The position numbers and the translations under genes are program-made. A stretch of DNA of 64,000 bases. It comes from a phage. Under the pieces are notes generated by a model. It had not been told where the DNA came from and did no database searches. It saw nothing but the letters and a program-made list of their open reading frames with translations. The stretch lies in the sequence record PZ445515.1. One strand, written 5' to 3'. Shown here one piece after another: positions 19,705 to 30,036 of the stretch. Every line of letters begins with the position of its first letter. Positions within the stretch are counted from its first letter, which is position 1.

Positions 19705-19776
19705 GCCGTCCTAGTATAATTGGTATTATCAAGCCGTAACTGGTGGAAGATGTAGGTTCGAATCCTACGGTCGGTA
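19705..19776 (+). ncRNA. tRNA-like element (no encoded CCA, poor D/anticodon arms)
   Basis: T-arm gtagg-TTCGAAT-cctac and 6/7 acceptor pairing, but no 3' CCA unlike all other tRNAs here. Confidence 0.3.
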
Positions 19777-23983: not shown

Positions 23984-24058
23984 GGTTCTCAAGCTCATAT
24001 GGTATGAGCACCCGGCTCATAACCGGAAGGTACGTAGGTTCGAATCCTCGGGGAGCCA
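23984..24058 (+). tRNA. tRNA-Met/Ile2 (anticodon CAT)
   Basis: Acceptor ggttctc/gggagcc, D-stem gctc/gagc, anticodon loop CTCATAA, CCA encoded; T-stem imperfect. Confidence 0.7.
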
Positions 24059-25857: not shown

Positions 25858-26142
25858 CCAAATTGAGGGAGCTGCTGATGCACCCTGAAAACTTCTTTAT
25901 TTACTGCGCGGATAAGTTGCTGAAACGTAGAATTAACAAAGTCTATCATTATCGTGCTAGTCAACAGCCTTATGTATACGCTTTTGACGGTGATCACATT
26001 CCATTAGAACAATTATCCTGTGATTACATGATATTGAAGAACTTTGACGAGACAAAGATCTCAAGCGTTCATAATCGACAGAATCCCTTAACGTGGAAAT
26101 ATAAGAAGAAAAAGAAAGGCATCAAATTTTTAAAAAATGTAG

Positions 26143-26171
26143 TTGCTTAGTTTCCAAAAGTTCTGTATAAT
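26143..26171 (+). promoter_or_regulatory. T5-type early promoter
   Basis: TTGCTT -35, 17 bp, TATAAT -10. Confidence 0.6.
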
Positions 26172-26219
26172 AATTACATAAATTGAACTGGAGAAGCAAC
26201 ATGACAGAACAAGATAAAT

Positions 26220-26292
26220 CGACCGTTGGCTGAATGGCTTAGGCGAAGGATTGCAAATCCTTTTTATGTGAGTTCAAATCTCATGCGGTCGT
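26220..26292 (+). tRNA. tRNA-Cys (anticodon GCA)
   Basis: Acceptor cgaccgt/gcggtcg, anticodon stem aagga/tcctt loop TTGCAAA, T-loop TTCAAAT, CCA encoded. Confidence 0.8.
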
Positions 26293-26297
26293 CCAAT

Positions 26298-26438
26298 TTG
26301 CTGAAAGAGTTGTTAAATCAATTCAGGCACGCGTAGGAACACTGTCTCCGTAATTGAAAGATGAGGCACGGTTTGGAGAGGTATGCCGCTACACGCTACG
26401 GTGCTAACTCCGTCTAGGTGAAAATCCTAGTCAGCAAT
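26298..26438 (+). ncRNA. tRNA-like / stable-RNA candidate (about 140 nt)
   Basis: 7-nt ends ttgctga/tcagcaa complementary, T-arm-like ctagg-TGAAAAT-cctag at 3' side; no CCA; too long for tRNA. Confidence 0.25.
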
Positions 26439-26447
26439 ATAAATTTA

Positions 26448-26527
26448 GGGTCGTTAGCCAAGCGGTTTGGCGGTGGACTGTTAATCCATGTCGAAAGACA
26501 ACGTAGGTTCGAATCCTACACGGCCCG
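26448..26527 (+). tRNA. tRNA with anticodon GTT (Asn-type) and unusually long variable arm
   Basis: Acceptor gggtcgt/acggccc, D-stem gcca/tggc, anticodon stem gtgga/tccat loop CTGTTAA, T-loop TTCGAAT, CCA encoded. Confidence 0.65.
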
Positions 26528-26632
26528 CCAAATTCTGTGTAGAGTTAAGTAAACCGGTAGCCAACCAGCTATCATTGCTGACATCGAATTCAGTCACAGA
26601 TACCATTTTCATTAATAACTGAGGAAACAAGC

Positions 26633-26818
26633 ATGTCCAAGAATGTAATTGCACAGCTAGAAGTTCATCGTGATAGCACTATCAACAATATTGAAGTTGA
26701 GAAGAAATACATCGAAGAACTTAAACATGATATACTAGTAAGTCTCAACCGTCTTAATGTACGAAAAAAGTTTCTTAAAGAACTTAATGCAGCTATTGAA
26801 AAACTCAAAGCTGAGTAA
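26633..26818 (+). CDS. hypothetical small coiled-coil protein
   Basis: 61 aa ORF. Confidence 0.5.
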   Translation: MSKNVIAQLEVHRDSTINNIEVEKKYIEELKHDILVSLNRLNVRKKFLKELNAAIEKLKAE

Positions 26819-26827
26819 ATGAATTAT

Positions 26828-26901
26828 GCGACCGGGGCTGGCTTGGTAATGGTACTCCCCTGTCACGGGAGGGAATGTGGGTTCAAATCCCATCGGTCGC
26901 G
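26828..26901 (+). tRNA. tRNA-Asp (anticodon GTC)
   Basis: Acceptor gcgaccg/cggtcgc, anticodon stem ctccc/gggag loop CTGTCAC, T-loop TTCAAAT, CCA encoded. Confidence 0.8.
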
Positions 26902-26930
26902 CCAAATTAAACTAGTACGAGAAATATGCT

Positions 26931-27278
26931 ATGATTAATGCTAAAGAAGAATTGTTACTTGCCTTAAAGAATATTAATTCTGAAGTTAAGTGTATTAAGA
27001 TAGAATTCGGTTATTATGGGGACAAAGAAGTTTGGGTGTTACCCGTAGGTTATACAGAAAAAGATATTGAAGATTTTCTAAATAATCTAGACTTTAAATA
27101 TGATTCTGGTTTCGGTGGGCAATTGCTTTATGGTAACGTGTGGTTTACTGATGGAACTTGGTTAGAACGTGGTGAATACGACGGTTCTGAATGGTGGGAA
27201 TATAAGGCTACACCAGCAATCCCAGAAGAATGCCGAACAATTAATGGTGAAGTAGATAATACTTTACGGTTAAACTAA
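26931..27278 (+). CDS. hypothetical protein
   Basis: 115 aa ORF. Confidence 0.55.
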   Translation: MINAKEELLLALKNINSEVKCIKIEFGYYGDKEVWVLPVGYTEKDIEDFLNNLDFKYDSGFGGQLLYGNVWFTDGTWLERGEYDGSEWWEYKATPAIPEECRTINGEVDNTLRLN

Positions 27279-27670
27279 TAAAATTTCAGTGCAGAACACG
27301 GAGCTAGCAATTCGGAAGTGCTGACTCATGATAAGCTGCCTATGTACTTGCGAAGCGGTCGTGTCCAAGACTCGGACTCTTGCACTGAAAACAATCAAAC
27401 ATTCTAGCGTGGTTGATGGGGAAACCAGCTTGGCGAGGGCAGAAGCTCGTTCGATTCGAGTGAAAGAATGGTTCTCGTAAGTCCGCACAAGTGATAACAG
27501 GTTCGAGTCCTGTCTAGAATGACACTATAAAGTTTACTTATTATGTAGGTTCCGATAGATCGGCGGGTCTATTCTGGCACTTAAGAGAGGTCTCGCAAAC
27601 TTCTTTGTCAGCCGTGGGGTTGGTAGCCTCCAGGTGGCCTACACAATAAGTAAATTTATTAAAAATTCAT

Positions 27671-27699
27671 TTGCTATTATGCTTAATTCTCTGTATAAT
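27671..27699 (+). promoter_or_regulatory. T5-type early promoter
   Basis: TTGCTA -35, 17 bp, TATAAT -10. Confidence 0.6.
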
Positions 27700-27731
27700 A
27701 TACCTTATAAAGTGTTGAGAAGGAAAGCAAA

Positions 27732-27929
27732 ATGAAAAAAGTTTTACTGCTGTCTGTATTCCTACTTACTGGTTGTTTTAAACTTGACTCAACCATTAAT
27801 AAAGAGTATGAATTTGCTAAAAATTTCTGTGGCGGAGAGAGTAATATAAAGAATTTCTACATATATAGTACAATTCCTAGTACCGTTTATTGTGTAGACG
27901 GACGAATTATTAATATTCCTCCACAATAA
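27732..27929 (+). CDS. small putative lipoprotein
   Basis: 65 aa; signal peptide with lipobox LLTGC. Confidence 0.5.
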   Translation: MKKVLLLSVFLLTGCFKLDSTINKEYEFAKNFCGGESNIKNFYIYSTIPSTVYCVDGRIINIPPQ

Positions 27930-27938
27930 AAGAATTAA

Positions 27939-28011
27939 CAGTGCGTAGCGCAGTTGGTAGCGTGGGAGCCTTGGATGCTTCGGGTCGCAGGTTCGAGTCC
28001 TGCCGCACTGA
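27939..28011 (+). tRNA. tRNA-Pro (anticodon TGG)
   Basis: Standard 73-nt cloverleaf: acceptor cagtgcg/cgcactg, D-stem gcgc/gcgt, anticodon loop CTTGGAT, T-loop TTCGAGT, CCA encoded. Confidence 0.85.
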
Positions 28012-28095: not shown

Positions 28096-28118
28096 CCATT
28101 TTAATAGAGGATTTCGAA

Positions 28119-28286
28119 ATGAAAGTATTTCGATTAGTAGTAAGTGACAAACGGTTAGGTAAGAATACATCAAAATCCTTACTCGCTCATTATGGTAAAA
28201 ATTGGGATGAAGTAATGGTAGAGTTTAGTACTAATCACCCTTACTTAAAAGTCCACTCTATTAAAGAAGTGTATAATGGTTACTAA
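28119..28286 (+). CDS. hypothetical small protein
   Basis: 55 aa ORF between two tRNAs. Confidence 0.4.
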   Translation: MKVFRLVVSDKRLGKNTSKSLLAHYGKNWDEVMVEFSTNHPYLKVHSIKEVYNGY

Positions 28287-28287
28287 T

Positions 28288-28363
28288 AGATCGCTAGCTC
28301 AATAGGTTTAGTAGCATCCGACTTTTAATCGGAAGGTTCTGGGTTCGAGTCCCAGGCGATCTA
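28288..28363 (+). tRNA. tRNA-Lys (anticodon TTT)
   Basis: Acceptor agatcgc/gcgatct, anticodon stem tccga/tcgga loop CTTTTAA, T-loop TTCGAGT, CCA encoded. Confidence 0.8.
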
Positions 28364-28384
28364 CCAATTTCAAGAAAAACGCAG

Positions 28385-28413
28385 TTGCTTAATGCTTAAT
28401 TTCTTGTTATAAT
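28385..28413 (+). promoter_or_regulatory. T5-type early promoter (drives non-coding block plus tRNAs)
   Basis: TTGCTT -35, 17 bp, TATAAT -10. Confidence 0.6.
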
Positions 28414-28430
28414 ATTTATATAAATTGATG

Positions 28431-28650
28431 AGGAGAAATCCTCATCATAGTTCACTAAGGTATTAGCTCGACCTAGGACTGGCTGCCAAAAAGCACGATC
28501 CCTACGATTCGGGAGAAGTTCTAGATTAGTCCACTAGATTCAGTGGCAACTGAATAGTGTATCGGGTTTGCGAGATGACGCGGTTCCTTCCGCTCGAAGC
28601 GAAGGTGCTGTAGTTACGCCGAGCTAATAGCCTTAGTAAACTAAATAATT
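28431..28650 (+). ncRNA. candidate structured non-coding RNA
   Basis: No ORF; hairpin gatgagga...tcctcatc at 5' end; 10-nt complementary pair tattagctcg/cgagctaata enclosing about 150 nt. Confidence 0.3.
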
Positions 28651-28651
28651 T

Positions 28652-28727
28652 GGGGAATGGGTCTGCATGGAGTGGACACCTCGCTTGCACCGAGGACATC
28701 AGAACGGTTCGATTCCGTTATTCTCCA
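28652..28727 (+). tRNA. tRNA-Ala (anticodon TGC)
   Basis: Acceptor ggggaat/attctcc, anticodon stem cctcg/cgagg loop CTTGCAC, T-loop TTCGATT, CCA encoded. Confidence 0.8.
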
Positions 28728-28735
28728 CCAAATAC

Positions 28736-28809
28736 GCGTGATTGATGGAATTGGCATACATACCGTCCTTAGAAGTCGGGTTTTGAGGGTTCGAATCCCT
28801 TGTCACGCA
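28736..28809 (+). tRNA. tRNA with anticodon TAG (Leu-type anticodon, short variable arm)
   Basis: Acceptor gcgtgat/gtcacgc, anticodon loop CTTAGAA, T-loop TTCGAAT, CCA encoded. Confidence 0.65.
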
Positions 28810-28924
28810 CCAAATTTGATGGTCAGAGTAAATTAAACCTACTATCTCGGTTGAGCTGTTTTAATGGGTTCGAATCCCAGCGAGGCGTAACTGCCTGGTG
28901 TGATAGAGGCATCATCTTGTTATT

Positions 28925-29012
28925 GGAAGAGCAAATCGAATTGGTGACGAAAACCGCTTGGAAAGTGGCTGACTGGTAAAACGGCTTGAGAGTTCAAATC
29001 TCTCCTCTTCCG
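28925..29012 (+). tRNA. tRNA-Ser (anticodon GGA)
   Basis: Acceptor ggaagag/ctcttcc, anticodon loop TTGGAAA, long variable arm, T-loop TTCAAAT, CCA encoded. Confidence 0.75.
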
Positions 29013-29027
29013 CCAAACAATTTATAT

Positions 29028-29119
29028 GGTAGGTCAATCCAATGGCTGGCGCTGGACTCCGACTTGAAATCGGTTGATCGTAGTGATACGGTGTAAGGGT
29101 TCGATCCCCTTACCTACCT
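29028..29119 (+). tRNA. tRNA-Ser (anticodon TGA)
   Basis: Acceptor ggtaggt/acctacc, anticodon loop CTTGAAA, long variable arm, T-loop TTCGATC, CCA encoded. Confidence 0.75.
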
Positions 29120-29488
29120 CCAAATCCTGAAGTATGCCGGAATCGGTAGACGGGGCTGCCTAAAAGGTTTATAGGGAACATCCACTCCCTGCAACATACC
29201 TCATAAAGCGGCTGAGATAAATGGTCTATCTCGTGAAGGTTCAAGTCCTTCTGCTTCTTGATACACCAATGGCTCAAAGTGTAACGGTGCTATTTGATGC
29301 GCTTAGTAAGACTTCCCCGACATGCGTTCGGGAGTAAGCTGCTAAGACTAGAGTAGAAGAGTTTCTGAGAGCCGCCACAATTGAAAATTCGTACTCGTCT
29401 TGAGCTGCGTGCAATAGGAGATAACTTGATTAGTATTCTAGAACATGCTAATTGAGGAAGGTTTCGCTAACCCTGCGAGTTTTCAATT

Positions 29489-29562
29489 GTGGCTATATCA
29501 TAATTGGTTAATGATCCTGATTGTGAATCAGGCCTATGTGGATTCGAATTCCACTAGCCACC
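29489..29562 (+). tRNA. tRNA-His (anticodon GTG)
   Basis: Acceptor gtggcta/tagccac, anticodon stem cctga/tcagg loop TTGTGAA, T-loop TTCGAAT, CCA encoded. Confidence 0.8.
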
Positions 29563-29590
29563 CCAAATTAACTTAAATAGGAAATAAAAT

Positions 29591-29785
29591 ATGGCTGATT
29601 TCTGCAAACAATGCTCCATTGATATGTGGGGTAAAGATACTGGTGATCTTTCTGGTTTGATTACAGAAGCTGAGGTCAAAGAAGGTTATGGTGCAGTTGT
29701 GATTTGCGAAGGATGCGGCGTTATTCGTGTTGATCATGAAGGCAAACGTTTGGAAGAATCTGAGCCAACAACAATTTTTCCGTAG
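29591..29785 (+). CDS. small Cys-rich (zinc-ribbon-like) protein
   Basis: 64 aa; CKQC...CEGC pairs. Confidence 0.5.
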   Translation: MADFCKQCSIDMWGKDTGDLSGLITEAEVKEGYGAVVICEGCGVIRVDHEGKRLEESEPTTIFP

Positions 29786-29962: not shown

Positions 29963-30036
29963 AGCGGTTAAGCACACGGGTTGTGCCGCAGGCCTTCCAA
30001 GCCTCGCTGAGTAGGGTTCGATTCCCTCTAGCCGCT
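29963..30036 (+). tRNA. tRNA-Gly (anticodon TCC)
   Basis: Acceptor agcggtt/tagccgc, anticodon loop CTTCCAA, T-loop TTCGATT, CCA encoded. Confidence 0.8.

What the first reader, a model, noticed from the sequence alone, without database searches (positions are those of the whole stretch)
27287..27660. 370-nt ORF-free segment with several nested long-range complementarities
Complementary 7-mers occur at cagtgca/tgcactg (about 27287 and 27381), attctag/ctagaat (27401 and 27512, the latter after acagg-TTCGAGT-cctgt) and gtaggtt/ggcctac (27545 and 27636). No promoter consensus precedes it, so it would be read through from upstream. The pattern suggests one or more structured RNAs rather than spacer DNA.
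Basis: seen in the sequence. Interest (0 to 1): 0.4.

Follow-up and report, generated by a model that had tools for sequence, protein, structure and literature searches.

The report
Three small structured RNAs of phage T5
This gene-free stretch of a T5-like phage holds three back-to-back cloverleaf-shaped small RNA genes: two are the already annotated T5 "stable RNAs" RNA2 and RNAIV (function unknown), the third is unannotated, and RNA2 proves to belong to a widespread, uncatalogued family of phage tRNA look-alikes.

Summary
The window comes from a T5-like phage (Tequintavirus), and the finding lies in its tRNA gene cluster. The three complementarities are real and longer than reported: 10 bp, 8 bp and 20 nt at 90%. 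Three such stems are rare in shuffles (P=0.0015).

- **27400-27524** is T5 RNA2 ("tRNA-like stable RNA, unknown function").
- **27543-27645** is T5 RNAIV ("stable RNA, unknown function").
- **27284-27390 ("seg1")** is unannotated in all three T5 records.

Covariation strongly supports a tRNA cloverleaf for RNA2 and a four-arm fold plus a 10-bp precursor stem for RNAIV. In RNA2 the anticodon loop is replaced by a conserved ~55-nt module that carries a second T-loop hairpin.

RNA2-like genes also occur in other Demerecviridae, in Acinetobacter T4-like phages and in about 25 environmental phage contigs. They mostly sit in tRNA arrays. No dedicated Rfam family covers them.

seg1 shows no covariation because it varies too little. 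It is, however, conserved like a tRNA gene (99.4% identity, against 90.9% for the adjacent CDS).

Function remains open. The most likely reading is non-decoding tRNA mimics excised from the early tRNA transcript.

The parts
27284..27390 (+). seg1: an unannotated ~107-nt structured unit. It has a 10-bp closing stem (27284-27293 / 27381-27390) and three predicted arms. These include the hairpin GNGUCC-AAGACUC-GGACUC at 27361-27379 and the small hairpin UUGC-GAA-GCGG at 27348-27358.
   Evidence: Perfect 10-bp inverted repeat. Not annotated in NC_005859, AY587007 or AY692264. Found in 220 phage records, all at least 93% identical. Mean identity is 99.4% against 90.9% for the adjacent CDS in 22 genomes. 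RNAalifold finds 0 of 36 pairs covarying. The 13 variable sites lie mostly in predicted loops (P~0.05). No Rfam match.
27391..27399 (+). A-rich linker (AACAAUCAA) between seg1 and RNA2. It is variable in sequence.
   Evidence: Variable columns.
27400..27524 (+). RNA2, the T5 'tRNA-like stable RNA'.
- Acceptor stem: 27401-27407 / 27514-27520.
- D arm: 27410-27413 / 27424-27427, with the GGGG loop.
- Anticodon-position stem: 27429-27432 / 27488-27491.
- T arm: 27497-27501 / 27509-27513, loop UUCGAGU.
- 3' tail: G-ACA, with no encoded CCA.
   Evidence: 96.8% identical to the T5 rna2 feature. Covariation. The RNA2 covariance model also hits ordinary tRNAs at 15-33 bits.
27433..27487 (+). Inner module of RNA2 that replaces the anticodon loop.
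- AGGG: 27436-27439.
- Second T-arm-like hairpin GCUCG-UUCGAUU-CGAGU: 27445-27461.
- AAUGG: 27467-27471.
- CGUAAGUCCGCA: 27476-27487.
   Evidence: The motifs are conserved across 34 distinct family members. The hairpin covaries in 4 of 5 pairs. The drawn helix CGAGGG/UUCUCG is only 69% canonical and is not supported. A possible pseudoknot AUGG/CCGC shows only one-sided changes.
27533..27654 (+). RNAIV precursor hairpin. The lower stem is UUUACUUAUU (27533-27542) paired with AAUAAGUAAA (27645-27654). The mature RNAIV, as annotated in T5, is 27543-27645.
   Evidence: 20-nt, 90% inverted repeat. The lower stem keeps pairing in Pectobacterium phage My1 with a different sequence. 97.1% identical to the T5 rnaIV feature.
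27545..27642 (+). RNAIV four-arm core.
- P1: 27545-27551 / 27636-27642.
- CC/GG extension: 27552-27553 / 27633-27634.
- Arm 1: 27554-27561 / 27566-27573, loop GGCG.
- Arm 2 outer: 27574-27577 / 27608-27611.
- Arm 2 inner: 27584-27591 / 27599-27606, loop CUCGCAA at 27592-27598.
- Arm 3: 27616-27619 / 27627-27630, 7-nt loop.
   Evidence: the count of structure pairs on 23 sequences gave 98.4% paired, 18 pairs with changes on both sides and 0 of 500 shuffles as high. The model R2 finds it only in Markadamsvirinae and Myunavirus.
27671..27699 (+). Promoter P13a (TTGCTA-17-TATAAT). It starts the next transcription unit and marks the 3' boundary of the RNA block.
   Evidence: Best promoter-like site, 10 of 12 matches. 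It corresponds to the T5 'promoter P13a' feature, mapped to 27652-27726.

Best explanation
The 370-nt segment is a tandem of three small non-coding RNA genes inside the early tRNA operon of a T5-like phage.

**Transcription and processing.** They are co-transcribed on the + strand with tRNA-Cys, tRNA-Asn, tRNA-Asp and the small ORFs. The nearest annotated promoter upstream is P14b, at window 26123-26197. Each unit is closed by a terminal stem and has three arms, which is cloverleaf topology. Each is most likely cut out by the host tRNA-maturation machinery and accumulates as a stable RNA. The inferred steps are:
- RNase P at the 5' end of the tRNA-shaped RNA2.
- Endonuclease and 3' exonuclease trimming back to the terminal stems.
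- A double-strand-specific cut, RNase III-like, at the junction of RNAIV with its 10-bp lower stem.

**What each unit is.**
- Unit 2 is T5 RNA2. It has a genuine tRNA shell (acceptor, D arm with GG, T arm, 5-nt variable loop). Its anticodon loop is replaced by a conserved ~55-nt module containing a second T-loop hairpin, so it cannot decode.
- Unit 3 is T5 RNAIV, a four-arm RNA with invariant loops CGGCGGG and CUCGCAA.
- Unit 1 (seg1) is an unannotated partner that always sits 9-13 nt upstream of RNA2.

**Shown versus inferred.**
- Shown: identity with the annotated T5 RNAs, the folds by covariation, the strong conservation, the wide distribution of RNA2-like genes in phage tRNA arrays, and the absence of an internal promoter or terminator.
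- Inferred: the processing enzymes, and the function. My best guess for function (about 30%) is that RNA2-type RNAs act as non-decoding tRNA mimics. They would occupy or titrate a tRNA-binding factor, such as a host tRNA-targeting defence nuclease, a modification or processing enzyme, or a ribosomal tRNA site. This would fit the role of the phage's own tRNA set.
For: **Identity.**
- The window is 96-100% identical to T5-like phages.
- Alignment to NC_005859 places rna2 at 27400-27524 and rnaIV at 27543-27645.
- The same features are annotated in AY692264 and in the BF23 record AJ604530 (H125).

**Chance.** Three stems of at least 8 bp give P=0.0015.

**RNA2 fold.**
- In Demerecviridae, 6 of 7 acceptor, 4 of 4 D, 3 of 4 anticodon-stem and 3 of 5 T pairs covary.
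- In 34 distinct members, including metagenomic ones, the figures are 7 of 7, 4 of 4, 4 of 4 and 3 of 5, with 93-97% canonical pairs. The inner T hairpin covaries in 4 of 5 pairs.
- The Rfam tRNA model scores some relatives at 46-51 bits with the 7-nt anticodon loop replaced by 51-59 nt.

**RNAIV fold.** 98.4% paired and 18 covarying pairs.

**seg1.** 99.4% identity against 90.9% for the adjacent CDS and 98.6-99.6% for true tRNAs. In the Epseptimaviruses TrudiGerster and STWB21 it stays linked to RNA2 while the upstream CDS is absent.

**Context.**
- 21 tRNAs lie on the same strand.
- There is no strong promoter or terminator inside the segment.
- RNA2-like genes lie in tRNA arrays of environmental phage contigs.

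**Modularity.** Some relatives carry 180-350-nt inserts between RNA2 and RNAIV, or lack RNAIV altogether. The units are therefore independent.
Against: - No expression or end-mapping data were available here. 'Stable RNA' rests on the depositors' annotation of T5, not on anything I could verify, and I found no paper in the held library that describes these RNAs.
- seg1 has no compensatory changes. It folds equally well on the minus strand. Its variable sites are only weakly enriched in loops (P~0.05).
- Single-sequence z-scores are modest.
- The window's RNA2 ends in G-ACA rather than CCA, and neither ARAGORN nor the Rfam tRNA model detects it.
- The decoy function is pure inference. No binding partner, phenotype or co-occurring protein was identified.
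Confidence: 0.8

Rival explanations
1. RNA2 is an interrupted but functional tRNA gene. The ~50-nt module would be an intron in the anticodon loop, removed to yield a decoding tRNA. One reading is tRNA-Pro with anticodon NGG and G37, with the insert after position 37. The other is tRNA-Arg(CCG), with the insert before the loop.
For: - The 5' flank of the insert reads Y-N-[A/U/G]-G-G-G and the 3' flank ends in A. Excision could therefore leave a loop such as CUAGGGA.
- With the insert removed, the shell is closest to the tRNA-Pro(UGG) of the same locus in several lineages: L117, L100, Epseptimavirus and several T5-likes.
- Some relatives encode CCA: INF11, Klebsiella phages, L121, L138 and L113.
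Against: - Position 33 is U in only 17 of 32 members. It is G in the window and toggles between G and U among near-identical T5-like phages. A decoding loop needs U33.
- The stem and flank register is not consistent between members. L117, for example, would not leave a 7-nt loop.
- ARAGORN finds nothing in any T5-like copy and disagrees with itself on the isotype.
- The Arg reading puts a pyrimidine at position 37.
- The insert lacks group I hallmarks and matches no Rfam ribozyme or intron.
- Bacteria are not known to have a tRNA splicing endonuclease (established knowledge).
- The insert's sequence is far more conserved than the shell. That is the opposite of what is usual for an intron.
- T5 annotates the unspliced 125-nt form as the stable species.
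Confidence: 0.1
2. The three units have no function of their own as free RNAs. They would be decayed tRNA genes, or structural 'punctuation' that only serves in cis. In this reading they direct cleavage of the polycistronic transcript and protect the 3' end of the upstream ORF mRNA (T5.067 homologue, 26931-27278) and the ends of neighbouring tRNAs.
For: - seg1 begins 6 nt after the stop codon of the upstream CDS.
- All units have cloverleaf topology in a cluster where small ORFs alternate with tRNAs.
- The slot upstream of RNA2 holds different cassettes, or nothing, in different phages.
- RNAIV is missing in one relative.
- T5 tRNA-region deletions are viable. The st0 deletion mutant record is an example.
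Against: - Loop and single-stranded sequences are nearly invariant across very distant phages. These include AGGG, UUCGAUU, AUGG and CGUAAnUCCGCA in RNA2, and CGGCGGG and CUCGCAA in RNAIV. That implies sequence-specific recognition, not just a stem.
- seg1 is more conserved than the CDS it would protect. It also persists without that CDS in TrudiGerster and STWB21.
- RNA2-like genes are kept in unrelated phage families and in megaphage-sized contigs.
Confidence: 0.2
3. RNA2 is a miniature tmRNA-like molecule, with a tRNA-like domain plus a PK1-like pseudoknot. It would act on stalled ribosomes or titrate SmpB.
For: - The order of elements resembles the 3' half of tmRNA pseudoknot 1: helix strand, then CGUAAA-N-CCGCA, with a possible pairing AUGG/CCGC. 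The E. coli sequence CCUCGUAAAAAGCCGCA is recalled from memory, so this is a lead and not a test.
- The few changes seen in AUGG/CCGC improve pairing: ACGG, GUGG, CCAU and CCGU.
Against: - ARAGORN finds no tmRNA.
- The Rfam tmRNA model gives no hit even at E<=10 on the 396-nt stretch.
- RNA2 has a full D arm and an anticodon-position stem, which tmRNA lacks.
- It has no tag reading frame.
- No G3:U70 is conserved, and acceptor stems differ freely between members.
- The pseudoknot pairing has no double compensatory change.
Confidence: 0.04
4. seg1 is not an RNA gene. Its conservation would reflect a DNA-level element (a nick site, a homing-endonuclease target or a recombination site) or a short protein-coding frame.
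For: - No covariation is available.
- It folds equally well on both strands.
- The T5 tRNA region is rich in HNH homing endonucleases and cassette exchange.
- Its distribution is narrow, with 220 records all at least 93% identical.
Against: - The perfect 10-bp terminal stem encloses ~90 nt exactly like its two neighbours.
- Predicted helices contain several G-U pairs, which exist only on the + strand.
- The one 4-nt block that differs (UCAU to GCGC in TrudiGerster) and a 1-nt deletion fall in a predicted hairpin loop.
- No ORF is conserved. The only + strand ORF (27328-27480) runs into RNA2.
- The orientation and spacing to RNA2 are fixed.
Confidence: 0.08

Closest known systems
Bacteriophage T5 stable RNAs RNA2 (rna2, T5s06) and RNAIV (rnaIV, T5s05), as annotated in GenBank NC_005859/AY543070, AY692264 and BF23 AJ604530
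   Same: Same locus, same order and same strand relative to the tRNAs. Identity is 96.8% (RNA2) and 97.1% (RNAIV) over the full annotated lengths. These are the same genes in a sister phage.
   Different: Nothing substantive for these two units. The annotation gives no structure, no family and no function. The 121 nt between T5.067 and rna2 (seg1) carry no feature in any T5 record.
Canonical tRNA (Rfam RF00005)
   Same: RNA2 has a 7-bp acceptor stem, a 2-nt 8/9 linker, a 4-bp D stem with a GG-containing loop, a 5-nt variable loop and a 5-bp T stem with a UUCGAGU loop. All stems covary. It lies in a tRNA cluster. Some relatives encode CCA and reach the Rfam tRNA gathering score.
   Different: There is no anticodon loop. 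A conserved ~55-nt module with a second T-loop hairpin sits in its place, and U33 is not conserved. The window copy is not detected by ARAGORN or the Rfam tRNA model. It has no encoded CCA.
Phage T4 small stable RNAs, species 1 (rnaC) and species 2 (rnaD)
   Same: Both are small stable RNAs of unknown function, encoded at the end of a phage tRNA cluster and co-transcribed with the tRNAs (T4 annotation). rnaC also carries a T-arm-like GGGUUCGAAUCCC near its 3' end.
   Different: No detectable homology. The RNA2 model hits only the T4 tRNAs in that region, and the RNAIV and seg1 models hit nothing. However, an Acinetobacter T4-like phage (Zedzedvirus Henu6) does carry a true RNA2 homologue at 56.7 bits.
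tmRNA and bacterial Y-RNA-like YrlA (other tRNA-mimicking non-coding RNAs)
   Same: Both combine a tRNA-like elbow or acceptor module with a non-tRNA module, and both are processed like tRNAs (established knowledge).
   Different: tmRNA lacks a D stem and an anticodon stem and carries a tag ORF and four pseudoknots. YrlA has its termini in the anticodon-position stem and closes the acceptor end, which is a permuted topology. Neither Rfam model matches, and ARAGORN finds no tmRNA.

Membership tests
T5 RNA2 / RNAIV (annotated stable RNAs of Tequintavirus) | Sequence identity and collinear position with the annotated features rna2 and rnaIV of phage T5 | tested here: met
   125 of 125 nt aligned at 96.8% and 103 of 103 nt at 97.1%. 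Both lie between the T5.067 homologue and promoter P13a.
T5 RNA2 / RNAIV (annotated stable RNAs of Tequintavirus) | Accumulation as discrete stable RNA species in infected cells | not testable with these tools
   This rests on the depositors' annotation ('stable RNA with unknown functions'). No expression data or primary paper was available.
tRNA (RF00005) | Cloverleaf with a 7-bp acceptor stem, a D arm, a T arm with a UUCRANY loop, and G18G19 | tested here: met
   RNA2's stems are 93-97% canonical with compensatory changes in nearly every pair. The D loop is GAUGGGGA and the T loop is UUCGAGU. The RNA2 model cross-hits true tRNAs.
tRNA (RF00005) | 7-nt anticodon loop with U33 and a purine at position 37, able to decode | tested here: not met
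   The loop is replaced by 55 nt in the window and by 45-59 nt in relatives. U33 is present in only 17 of 32 members and is G in the window.
tRNA (RF00005) | Detection by tRNA finders or the Rfam gathering score | tested here: not met
   The window copy is not found by ARAGORN, by ARAGORN with introns allowed, or by Rfam at E<=10. Some distant relatives do pass: L109 at 50.6 bits and L092 at 45.9 bits.
tRNA (RF00005) | 3' CCA and aminoacylation | not testable with these tools
   The window encodes G-ACA. INF11, the Klebsiella phages and some metagenomic members encode CCA. Charging cannot be assessed in silico.
tmRNA (RF00023) | tRNA-like domain without a D stem, a tag-peptide ORF, PK1-PK4, and G3:U70 | tested here: not met
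   No ARAGORN tmRNA and no Rfam hit. RNA2 has a D stem, no ORF, and an acceptor stem free to vary.
Intron-containing tRNA (group I intron in the anticodon loop) | Self-splicing intron core (P1-P9), U before the 5' splice site, terminal G, and more than 200 nt | tested here: not met
   The insert is 45-59 nt, ends in C, follows a G, and matches no Rfam intron or ribozyme.
T4 species 1/2 RNAs (rnaC, rnaD) | Homology to T4 rnaC or rnaD | tested here: not met
   Covariance models R1, R2 and R3 give no hit on rnaC or rnaD in L074.
YrlA / bacterial Y RNA | Ro60-binding stem formed by the termini plus a tRNA-like module closed at the acceptor end | tested here: not met
   The termini of RNA2 form the acceptor stem. 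No Rfam match.

The most novel reading that the evidence does not exclude
RNA2 would be the long-overlooked founding member of a widespread class of phage-encoded 'anticodon-less tRNAs' that has not been curated.

**Architecture.** A fully covarying tRNA shell whose anticodon loop is replaced by a conserved ~50-nt module. The module carries AGGG, a second T-loop hairpin, AUGG and CGUAAnUCCGCA, possibly folded as a pseudoknot or a second 'elbow'.

**Distribution.** The class is kept in the tRNA arrays of Demerecviridae, Acinetobacter T4-like phages, megaphage-sized contigs and many lake, soil and sediment phages.

**Proposed role.** It would have a dedicated trans-acting role in the phage-host conflict over tRNAs and translation. 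Examples are a decoy or inhibitor of a tRNA-targeting defence, or a codon-independent ribosome ligand. seg1 and RNAIV would be lineage-specific partner RNAs.
Probability: 0.3. Interest if true: 0.75.

Novelty: already known. Interest (0 to 1): 0.45.

Why it matters
Small stable RNAs in phage tRNA clusters (T4 species 1 and 2, and the T5 RNAs I, III, IV, 1, 2, 2H and 3) have been known for decades, and to my knowledge none has an assigned function. The finding itself rediscovers two of them.

This analysis adds several things:
- Covariation-backed secondary structures for RNA2 and RNAIV.
- A precise definition of what is tRNA-like in RNA2 and what is not.
- Evidence that RNA2-type RNAs are a broad family in phage tRNA arrays, well beyond T5, with no dedicated Rfam family.
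- A third, unannotated unit that is conserved like a tRNA gene.

Phage tRNAs are now understood as counter-measures to tRNA-cleaving defences. A conserved tRNA that cannot decode is therefore a concrete candidate for a decoy or regulator. It is directly testable in T5, a tractable model phage.

Tried and rejected
- **Rfam.** I searched the 14-kb tRNA region at E<=1 and the 396-nt segment at E<=10. No family matched any of the three units; the only hit was a spurious miRNA match at E=6.3.
- **Host origin.** blastn of 27279-27655 against 5,426 E. coli genomes found nothing.
- **Distant seg1 homologues.** blastn 'distant' found only copies at least 93% identical. The covariance model R3 found nothing in 75 loci. 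Covariation for seg1 is therefore untestable.
- **RNAIV outside Demerecviridae.** Model R2 found none.
- **MFE inner helix.** The inner helix CGAGGG/UUCUCG of RNA2 from the MFE fold is rejected. It has no compensatory change, 8 of 24 and later 31% of cells are non-canonical, and the AGGG is better read as unpaired or tertiary. The MFE pairing UGGC/GCCG in RNAIV is also rejected, in favour of CUGG/UCAG, which covaries.
- **Alternative helix.** By eye I tried pairing the segment after AGGG with the segment before CGUAA (AGAA/UUCU, GUA/UAC, GUC/GAC, GGG/CCC). It is suggestive but needs two registers, so I do not claim it.
- **Pseudoknot AUGG/CCGC.** Only one-sided changes were seen, and the shuffle test was uninformative.
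- **RNA-RNA pairing between the units.** duplexfold over whole sequences was not meaningful. The short complementarities I saw by eye (RNAIV loop CUCGC with RNA2 GCGAG, and RNAIV GCGG with RNA2 CCGC) do not covary. RNA2 also exists widely without RNAIV.
- **Annotation artefact.** A 'tRNA-Gly' annotated under an RNAIV homologue turned out to be a mis-joined feature.
- **Literature.** Six full-text searches found no paper on T5 RNA2 or RNAIV, or on the wider family. The 1980s primary literature is not in the held library.
- **IMG/VR scans.** These returned mainly isolate genomes and added little diversity.
Full report
**Where the window comes from.**
- blastn of 27200-27750 against GenBank phages gives 100% identity to Escherichia phages T5_ev212, EC148 and MM-1, and 96-98% to many Tequintaviruses.
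- ARAGORN finds 21 tRNA genes, all on the + strand, between 20279 and 31629.
- The finding lies inside this cluster, between the CDS 26931-27278 (homologue of T5.067) and a small ORF at 27732-27929.

**The observation.**
- All three complementarities exist. The second 3' arm is at 27514-27520, not 27512.
- The repeat finder shows the stems are longer: 27284-27293 / 27381-27390 (10 bp), 27400-27407 / 27514-27521 (8 bp) and 27530-27549 / 27638-27657 (20 nt, 90%).
- As 7-mers the pattern is within chance (P=0.08). Three stems of at least 8 bp, each enclosing 60-130 nt, occur in 3 of 2000 dinucleotide shuffles.
- MFE folds close each unit by its terminal stem, but the z-scores are only -1.3 to -1.8. 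Thermodynamics alone would not be convincing.

**What is already annotated.**
- Aligning the segment to phage T5 (NC_005859, 97% identity) and reading that record's features gives three matches:
  - rna2, 'tRNA-like stable RNA with unknown functions', is window 27400-27524.
  - rnaIV, 'stable RNA with unknown functions', is window 27543-27645.
  - 'Promoter P13a' is 27652-27726. The scan finds TTGCTA-17-TATAAT there at 27671-27699.
- The same features appear in AY692264 and in the BF23 tRNA-region record.
- The 121 nt between the CDS and rna2 carry no feature in any of the three T5 records. I call this stretch seg1.
- The window also contains homologues of the other T5 stable RNAs: rna3, rna2H, rna1, rnaI and rnaIII.
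The first belongs to an unannotated unit.

**RNA2.**
- *Fold by eye.* The sequence forms a tRNA cloverleaf. It has a 7-bp acceptor stem, the linker CG, the D arm UGGU-[GAUGGGGA]-ACCA, a stem CUUG/CAAG in the anticodon-stem position, the 5-nt variable loop UGAUA and the T arm ACAGG-UUCGAGU-CCUGU. Fifty-five nucleotides stand where the anticodon loop should be.
- *Homologues.* blastn 'distant' finds homologues in 485 phage records, down to 75% identity. They include Epseptimavirus, Pectobacterium phage My1, Klebsiella Sugarlandviruses and Acinetobacter T4-like Zedzedviruses.
- *Covariance model.* A model built on my manual structure (R1) scores true homologues at 117-165 bits. It scores the Acinetobacter copy at 56.7 bits and ordinary tRNAs of the same genomes at 15-33 bits. 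The shell is therefore genuinely tRNA-like.
- *Covariation in isolates.* On 24 sequences, 94.5% of cells pair and 18 of 31 pairs show changes on both sides. No shuffle out of 500 reaches this, and slid controls give 35-45%.
- *Wider search.* A pattern spanning both T-loops and the conserved CGUAA..CC..A block found 54 metagenome stretches and one GTDB contig. R1 confirmed about 25 further distinct 120-140-nt members at 32-72 bits. They come from lake, sediment, soil and gut samples, including a 570-kb contig.
- *Family-wide covariation.* Over 34 distinct members every acceptor, D and anticodon-stem pair covaries, as do 3 of 5 T-arm pairs and 4 of 5 inner-hairpin pairs.
- *Genomic context.* The genes mostly sit in phage tRNA arrays, some next to suppressor tRNAs.
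- *The inner module.* It is more conserved than the shell. Its consensus is N-C-[U/G]-AGGG-YWG.., then a 4-6-bp hairpin with loop UUCGAUU, then UGAAAG-UAUGG, then ..CGUAAAUCCGCA. The helix CGAGGG/UUCUCG from the MFE fold is not supported (69% canonical, no compensation). A pseudoknot AUGG/CCGC is possible but unproven.
- *Rfam.* No dedicated family matches. The tRNA model accepts some members as tRNAs whose 7-nt loop is replaced by 51-59 nt.

**Is RNA2 an interrupted tRNA gene?**
- *For.* The 5' flank of the insert looks like positions 32-37 of a tRNA-Pro (Y-N-NGG-G). ARAGORN with introns calls some members tRNA-Pro(agg), and others tRNA-Arg(ccg) using the 3' flank. With the insert removed, the shell is closest to the local tRNA-Pro(UGG) in several lineages. 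Descent from a tRNA-Pro gene is plausible.
- *Against.* U33 is present in only about half the members and toggles between G and U among near-identical T5-like phages. The flank register is inconsistent. The insert has no intron or ribozyme signature. The insert is the most conserved part. T5 annotates the full 125-nt form as the stable species.
- I therefore read RNA2 as a non-decoding tRNA mimic and keep the intron idea as a 10% rival.

**RNAIV.**
- *Alignment.* Twenty-three distinct sequences were aligned. They come from Tequintavirus, three Epseptimavirus subtypes, Yersinia phage phiR2-01, Salmonella phage INF11 and Pectobacterium phage My1.
- *Fold.* It has a terminal stem of 7+2 bp. Arm 1 is 8 bp with a GGCG loop. 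Arm 2 is 4+8 bp with the invariant loop CUCGCAA. Arm 3 is 4 bp with a 7-nt loop.
- *Covariation.* The fold is 98.4% paired, with 18 pairs changed on both sides. No shuffle out of 500 is as high, and slid controls give 40-55%.
- *Precursor stem.* A further 10-bp stem, UUUACUUAUU/AAUAAGUAAA, flanks the mature RNA and is kept, with a different sequence, in My1. The annotated T5 ends fall at the junction of this lower stem with a 2x2 internal loop. This suggests excision by a double-strand-specific nuclease such as RNase III (inference).
- *Distribution.* The R2 model finds RNAIV only in Markadamsvirinae and Myunavirus.

**seg1.**
- *Distribution.* blastn finds it in 220 records, all at least 93% identical. 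The R3 model finds nothing more distant.
- *Structure.* RNAalifold on 15 variants gives a closing stem plus three arms, with 0 of 36 pairs covarying.
- *Variable sites.* Of 13 variable core positions, 9 are unpaired in that consensus, 3 are wobble-compatible or pair-creating, and 1 breaks a pair. Against pair probabilities from the window sequence alone the enrichment is weak (P~0.05).
- *Conservation.* This is the strongest argument. Over 22 Tequintavirus genomes, seg1 is 99.4% identical (minimum 98.0%). The CDS that ends 6 nt upstream is 90.9% and promoter P13a is 91.7%. RNAIV is 96.9%, RNA2 98.6% and true tRNAs 98.6-99.6%.
- *Linkage.* In the Epseptimaviruses TrudiGerster and STWB21 seg1 follows tRNA-Lys(CUU) and an odd tRNA-like RNA instead of the CDS, yet it still sits directly upstream of RNA2. 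It belongs with RNA2, not with the ORF. Other phages fill that slot with different small hairpin cassettes, or with nothing.
- *Verdict.* I judge seg1 a probable third small RNA gene (about 70%). This is not proven.

**Mechanism.**
- *Shown.* One transcription direction, no strong promoter or terminator within 26200-27670 (T5 features), modular units and cloverleaf-type folds.
- *Inferred from established knowledge of E. coli tRNA maturation.* RNase P cuts at the 5' end of RNA2, which also frees the 3' side of seg1. Endonuclease and exonuclease trimming then proceeds to the terminal stems. CCA addition is possible, and RNase III-like cleavage would release RNAIV.
- *Function.* It is unknown in the annotation, and I could not derive it. 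The invariant loops argue for specific recognition in trans. Given current knowledge that T5 tRNAs counter tRNA-cleaving defences (cited in PMC10644984), a tRNA mimic that cannot decode is most economically a decoy or regulator of a tRNA-binding factor. I put about 30% on that.

**Novelty.**
- The existence of structured stable RNAs at 27400-27645 is already known from the T5 annotation, so the finding as stated is a rediscovery.
- New here, as far as the held literature and Rfam 15 show, are the covariation-backed folds, the breadth of the RNA2 family and the candidate seg1 RNA.

Noticed in passing
window 26533-26605, 28461-28632, 29133-29270, 29271-29377, 29382-29487: These are homologues of the other five annotated T5 'stable RNAs': rna3, rna2H, rna1, rnaI and rnaIII, at 85-99% identity. 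The tRNA cluster therefore holds at least eight non-tRNA small RNA units. rna1 is only 85.5% identical to T5.
   Followed up: partly
window ~28100-29600 compared with T5 (L001): blastn of T5 tRNA-Val(UAC), T5.069 and the HNH endonuclease genes hegC and hegD found no match in the window. This phage lacks those T5 cassettes, consistent with mosaic exchange in the tRNA region.
   Followed up: no
L039 ~1133-1190 and L040 ~1133-1190 (between tRNA-Lys(CUU) and the RNA2 homologue): Salmonella phage S132 and Pectobacterium phage My1 carry a ~57-nt hairpin unit in the slot where T5-like phages have seg1. The sequences are AUAGAGU...ACUCUAU and ACAGAGU...ACUCUGU, and the closing stem shows a compensatory change. 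SB13 and INF11 carry yet another sequence there, and sal2 and phiR2-01 carry nothing.
   Followed up: partly
L075 ~955-1045, L077 ~655-745, L040 ~1415-1500: An odd ~90-nt tRNA-like RNA (GGGGUCUUAGCUAAUCGG...AGACUCC-ACCA) with an encoded CCA lies upstream of seg1 in TrudiGerster and STWB21. A related copy lies downstream of tRNA-Gly in My1. The depositors did not call it a tRNA.
   Followed up: no
L051 8285-8394: An Epseptimavirus contig carries a ~100-nt tRNA-shaped RNA (GUGGAGA...UCUCCAC-A-CCA, T arm GCAGG-UUCGACU-CCUGU) with a non-canonical core. It sits between tRNA-Gly and the RNAIV homologue.
   Followed up: no
L117 1967-2098 and L124 3514-3652: In environmental phage tRNA arrays the Rfam tRNA model also finds tRNAs carrying 60-70 extra nucleotides whose sequence is unrelated to the RNA2 module. 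In the L117 case the extra sequence lies in the anticodon loop. The L117 array, like that of L139, also contains amber and ochre suppressor-type tRNAs (anticodons cta, tta).
   Followed up: no
L008, L009, L012, L020 (between the RNA2 and RNAIV homologues); L022: Some Tequintaviruses have 180-350-nt insertions between RNA2 and RNAIV, and one (L022) lacks RNAIV. The content of the insertions was not examined.
   Followed up: no
window 19705-19776, 23984-24058, 29028-29118, 29963-30036: Rfam detects tRNA-clan matches that ARAGORN did not list. The tRNA matches score 35.5 and 40.3 bits. The tRNA-Sec-model matches score 37.6 and 31.1 bits, below the gathering score. They probably correspond to the additional tRNA genes (Ile2, Ser, Gly) annotated at the equivalent positions in T5 and T5_ev212.
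   Followed up: no
window 27287-27293 / 27381-27387 compared with 27939-27945 / 28005-28011; 27497-27513 compared with 27988-28004: The seg1 terminal stem (CAGUGCA/UGCACUG) differs by one base pair from the acceptor stem of the nearby tRNA-Pro(UGG) (CAGUGCG/CGCACUG). The RNA2 T arm is nearly identical to that tRNA's T arm, and in some relatives it is identical (GCAGGUUCGAGUCCUGC). This may hint at descent from a tRNA-Pro duplication.
   Followed up: partly
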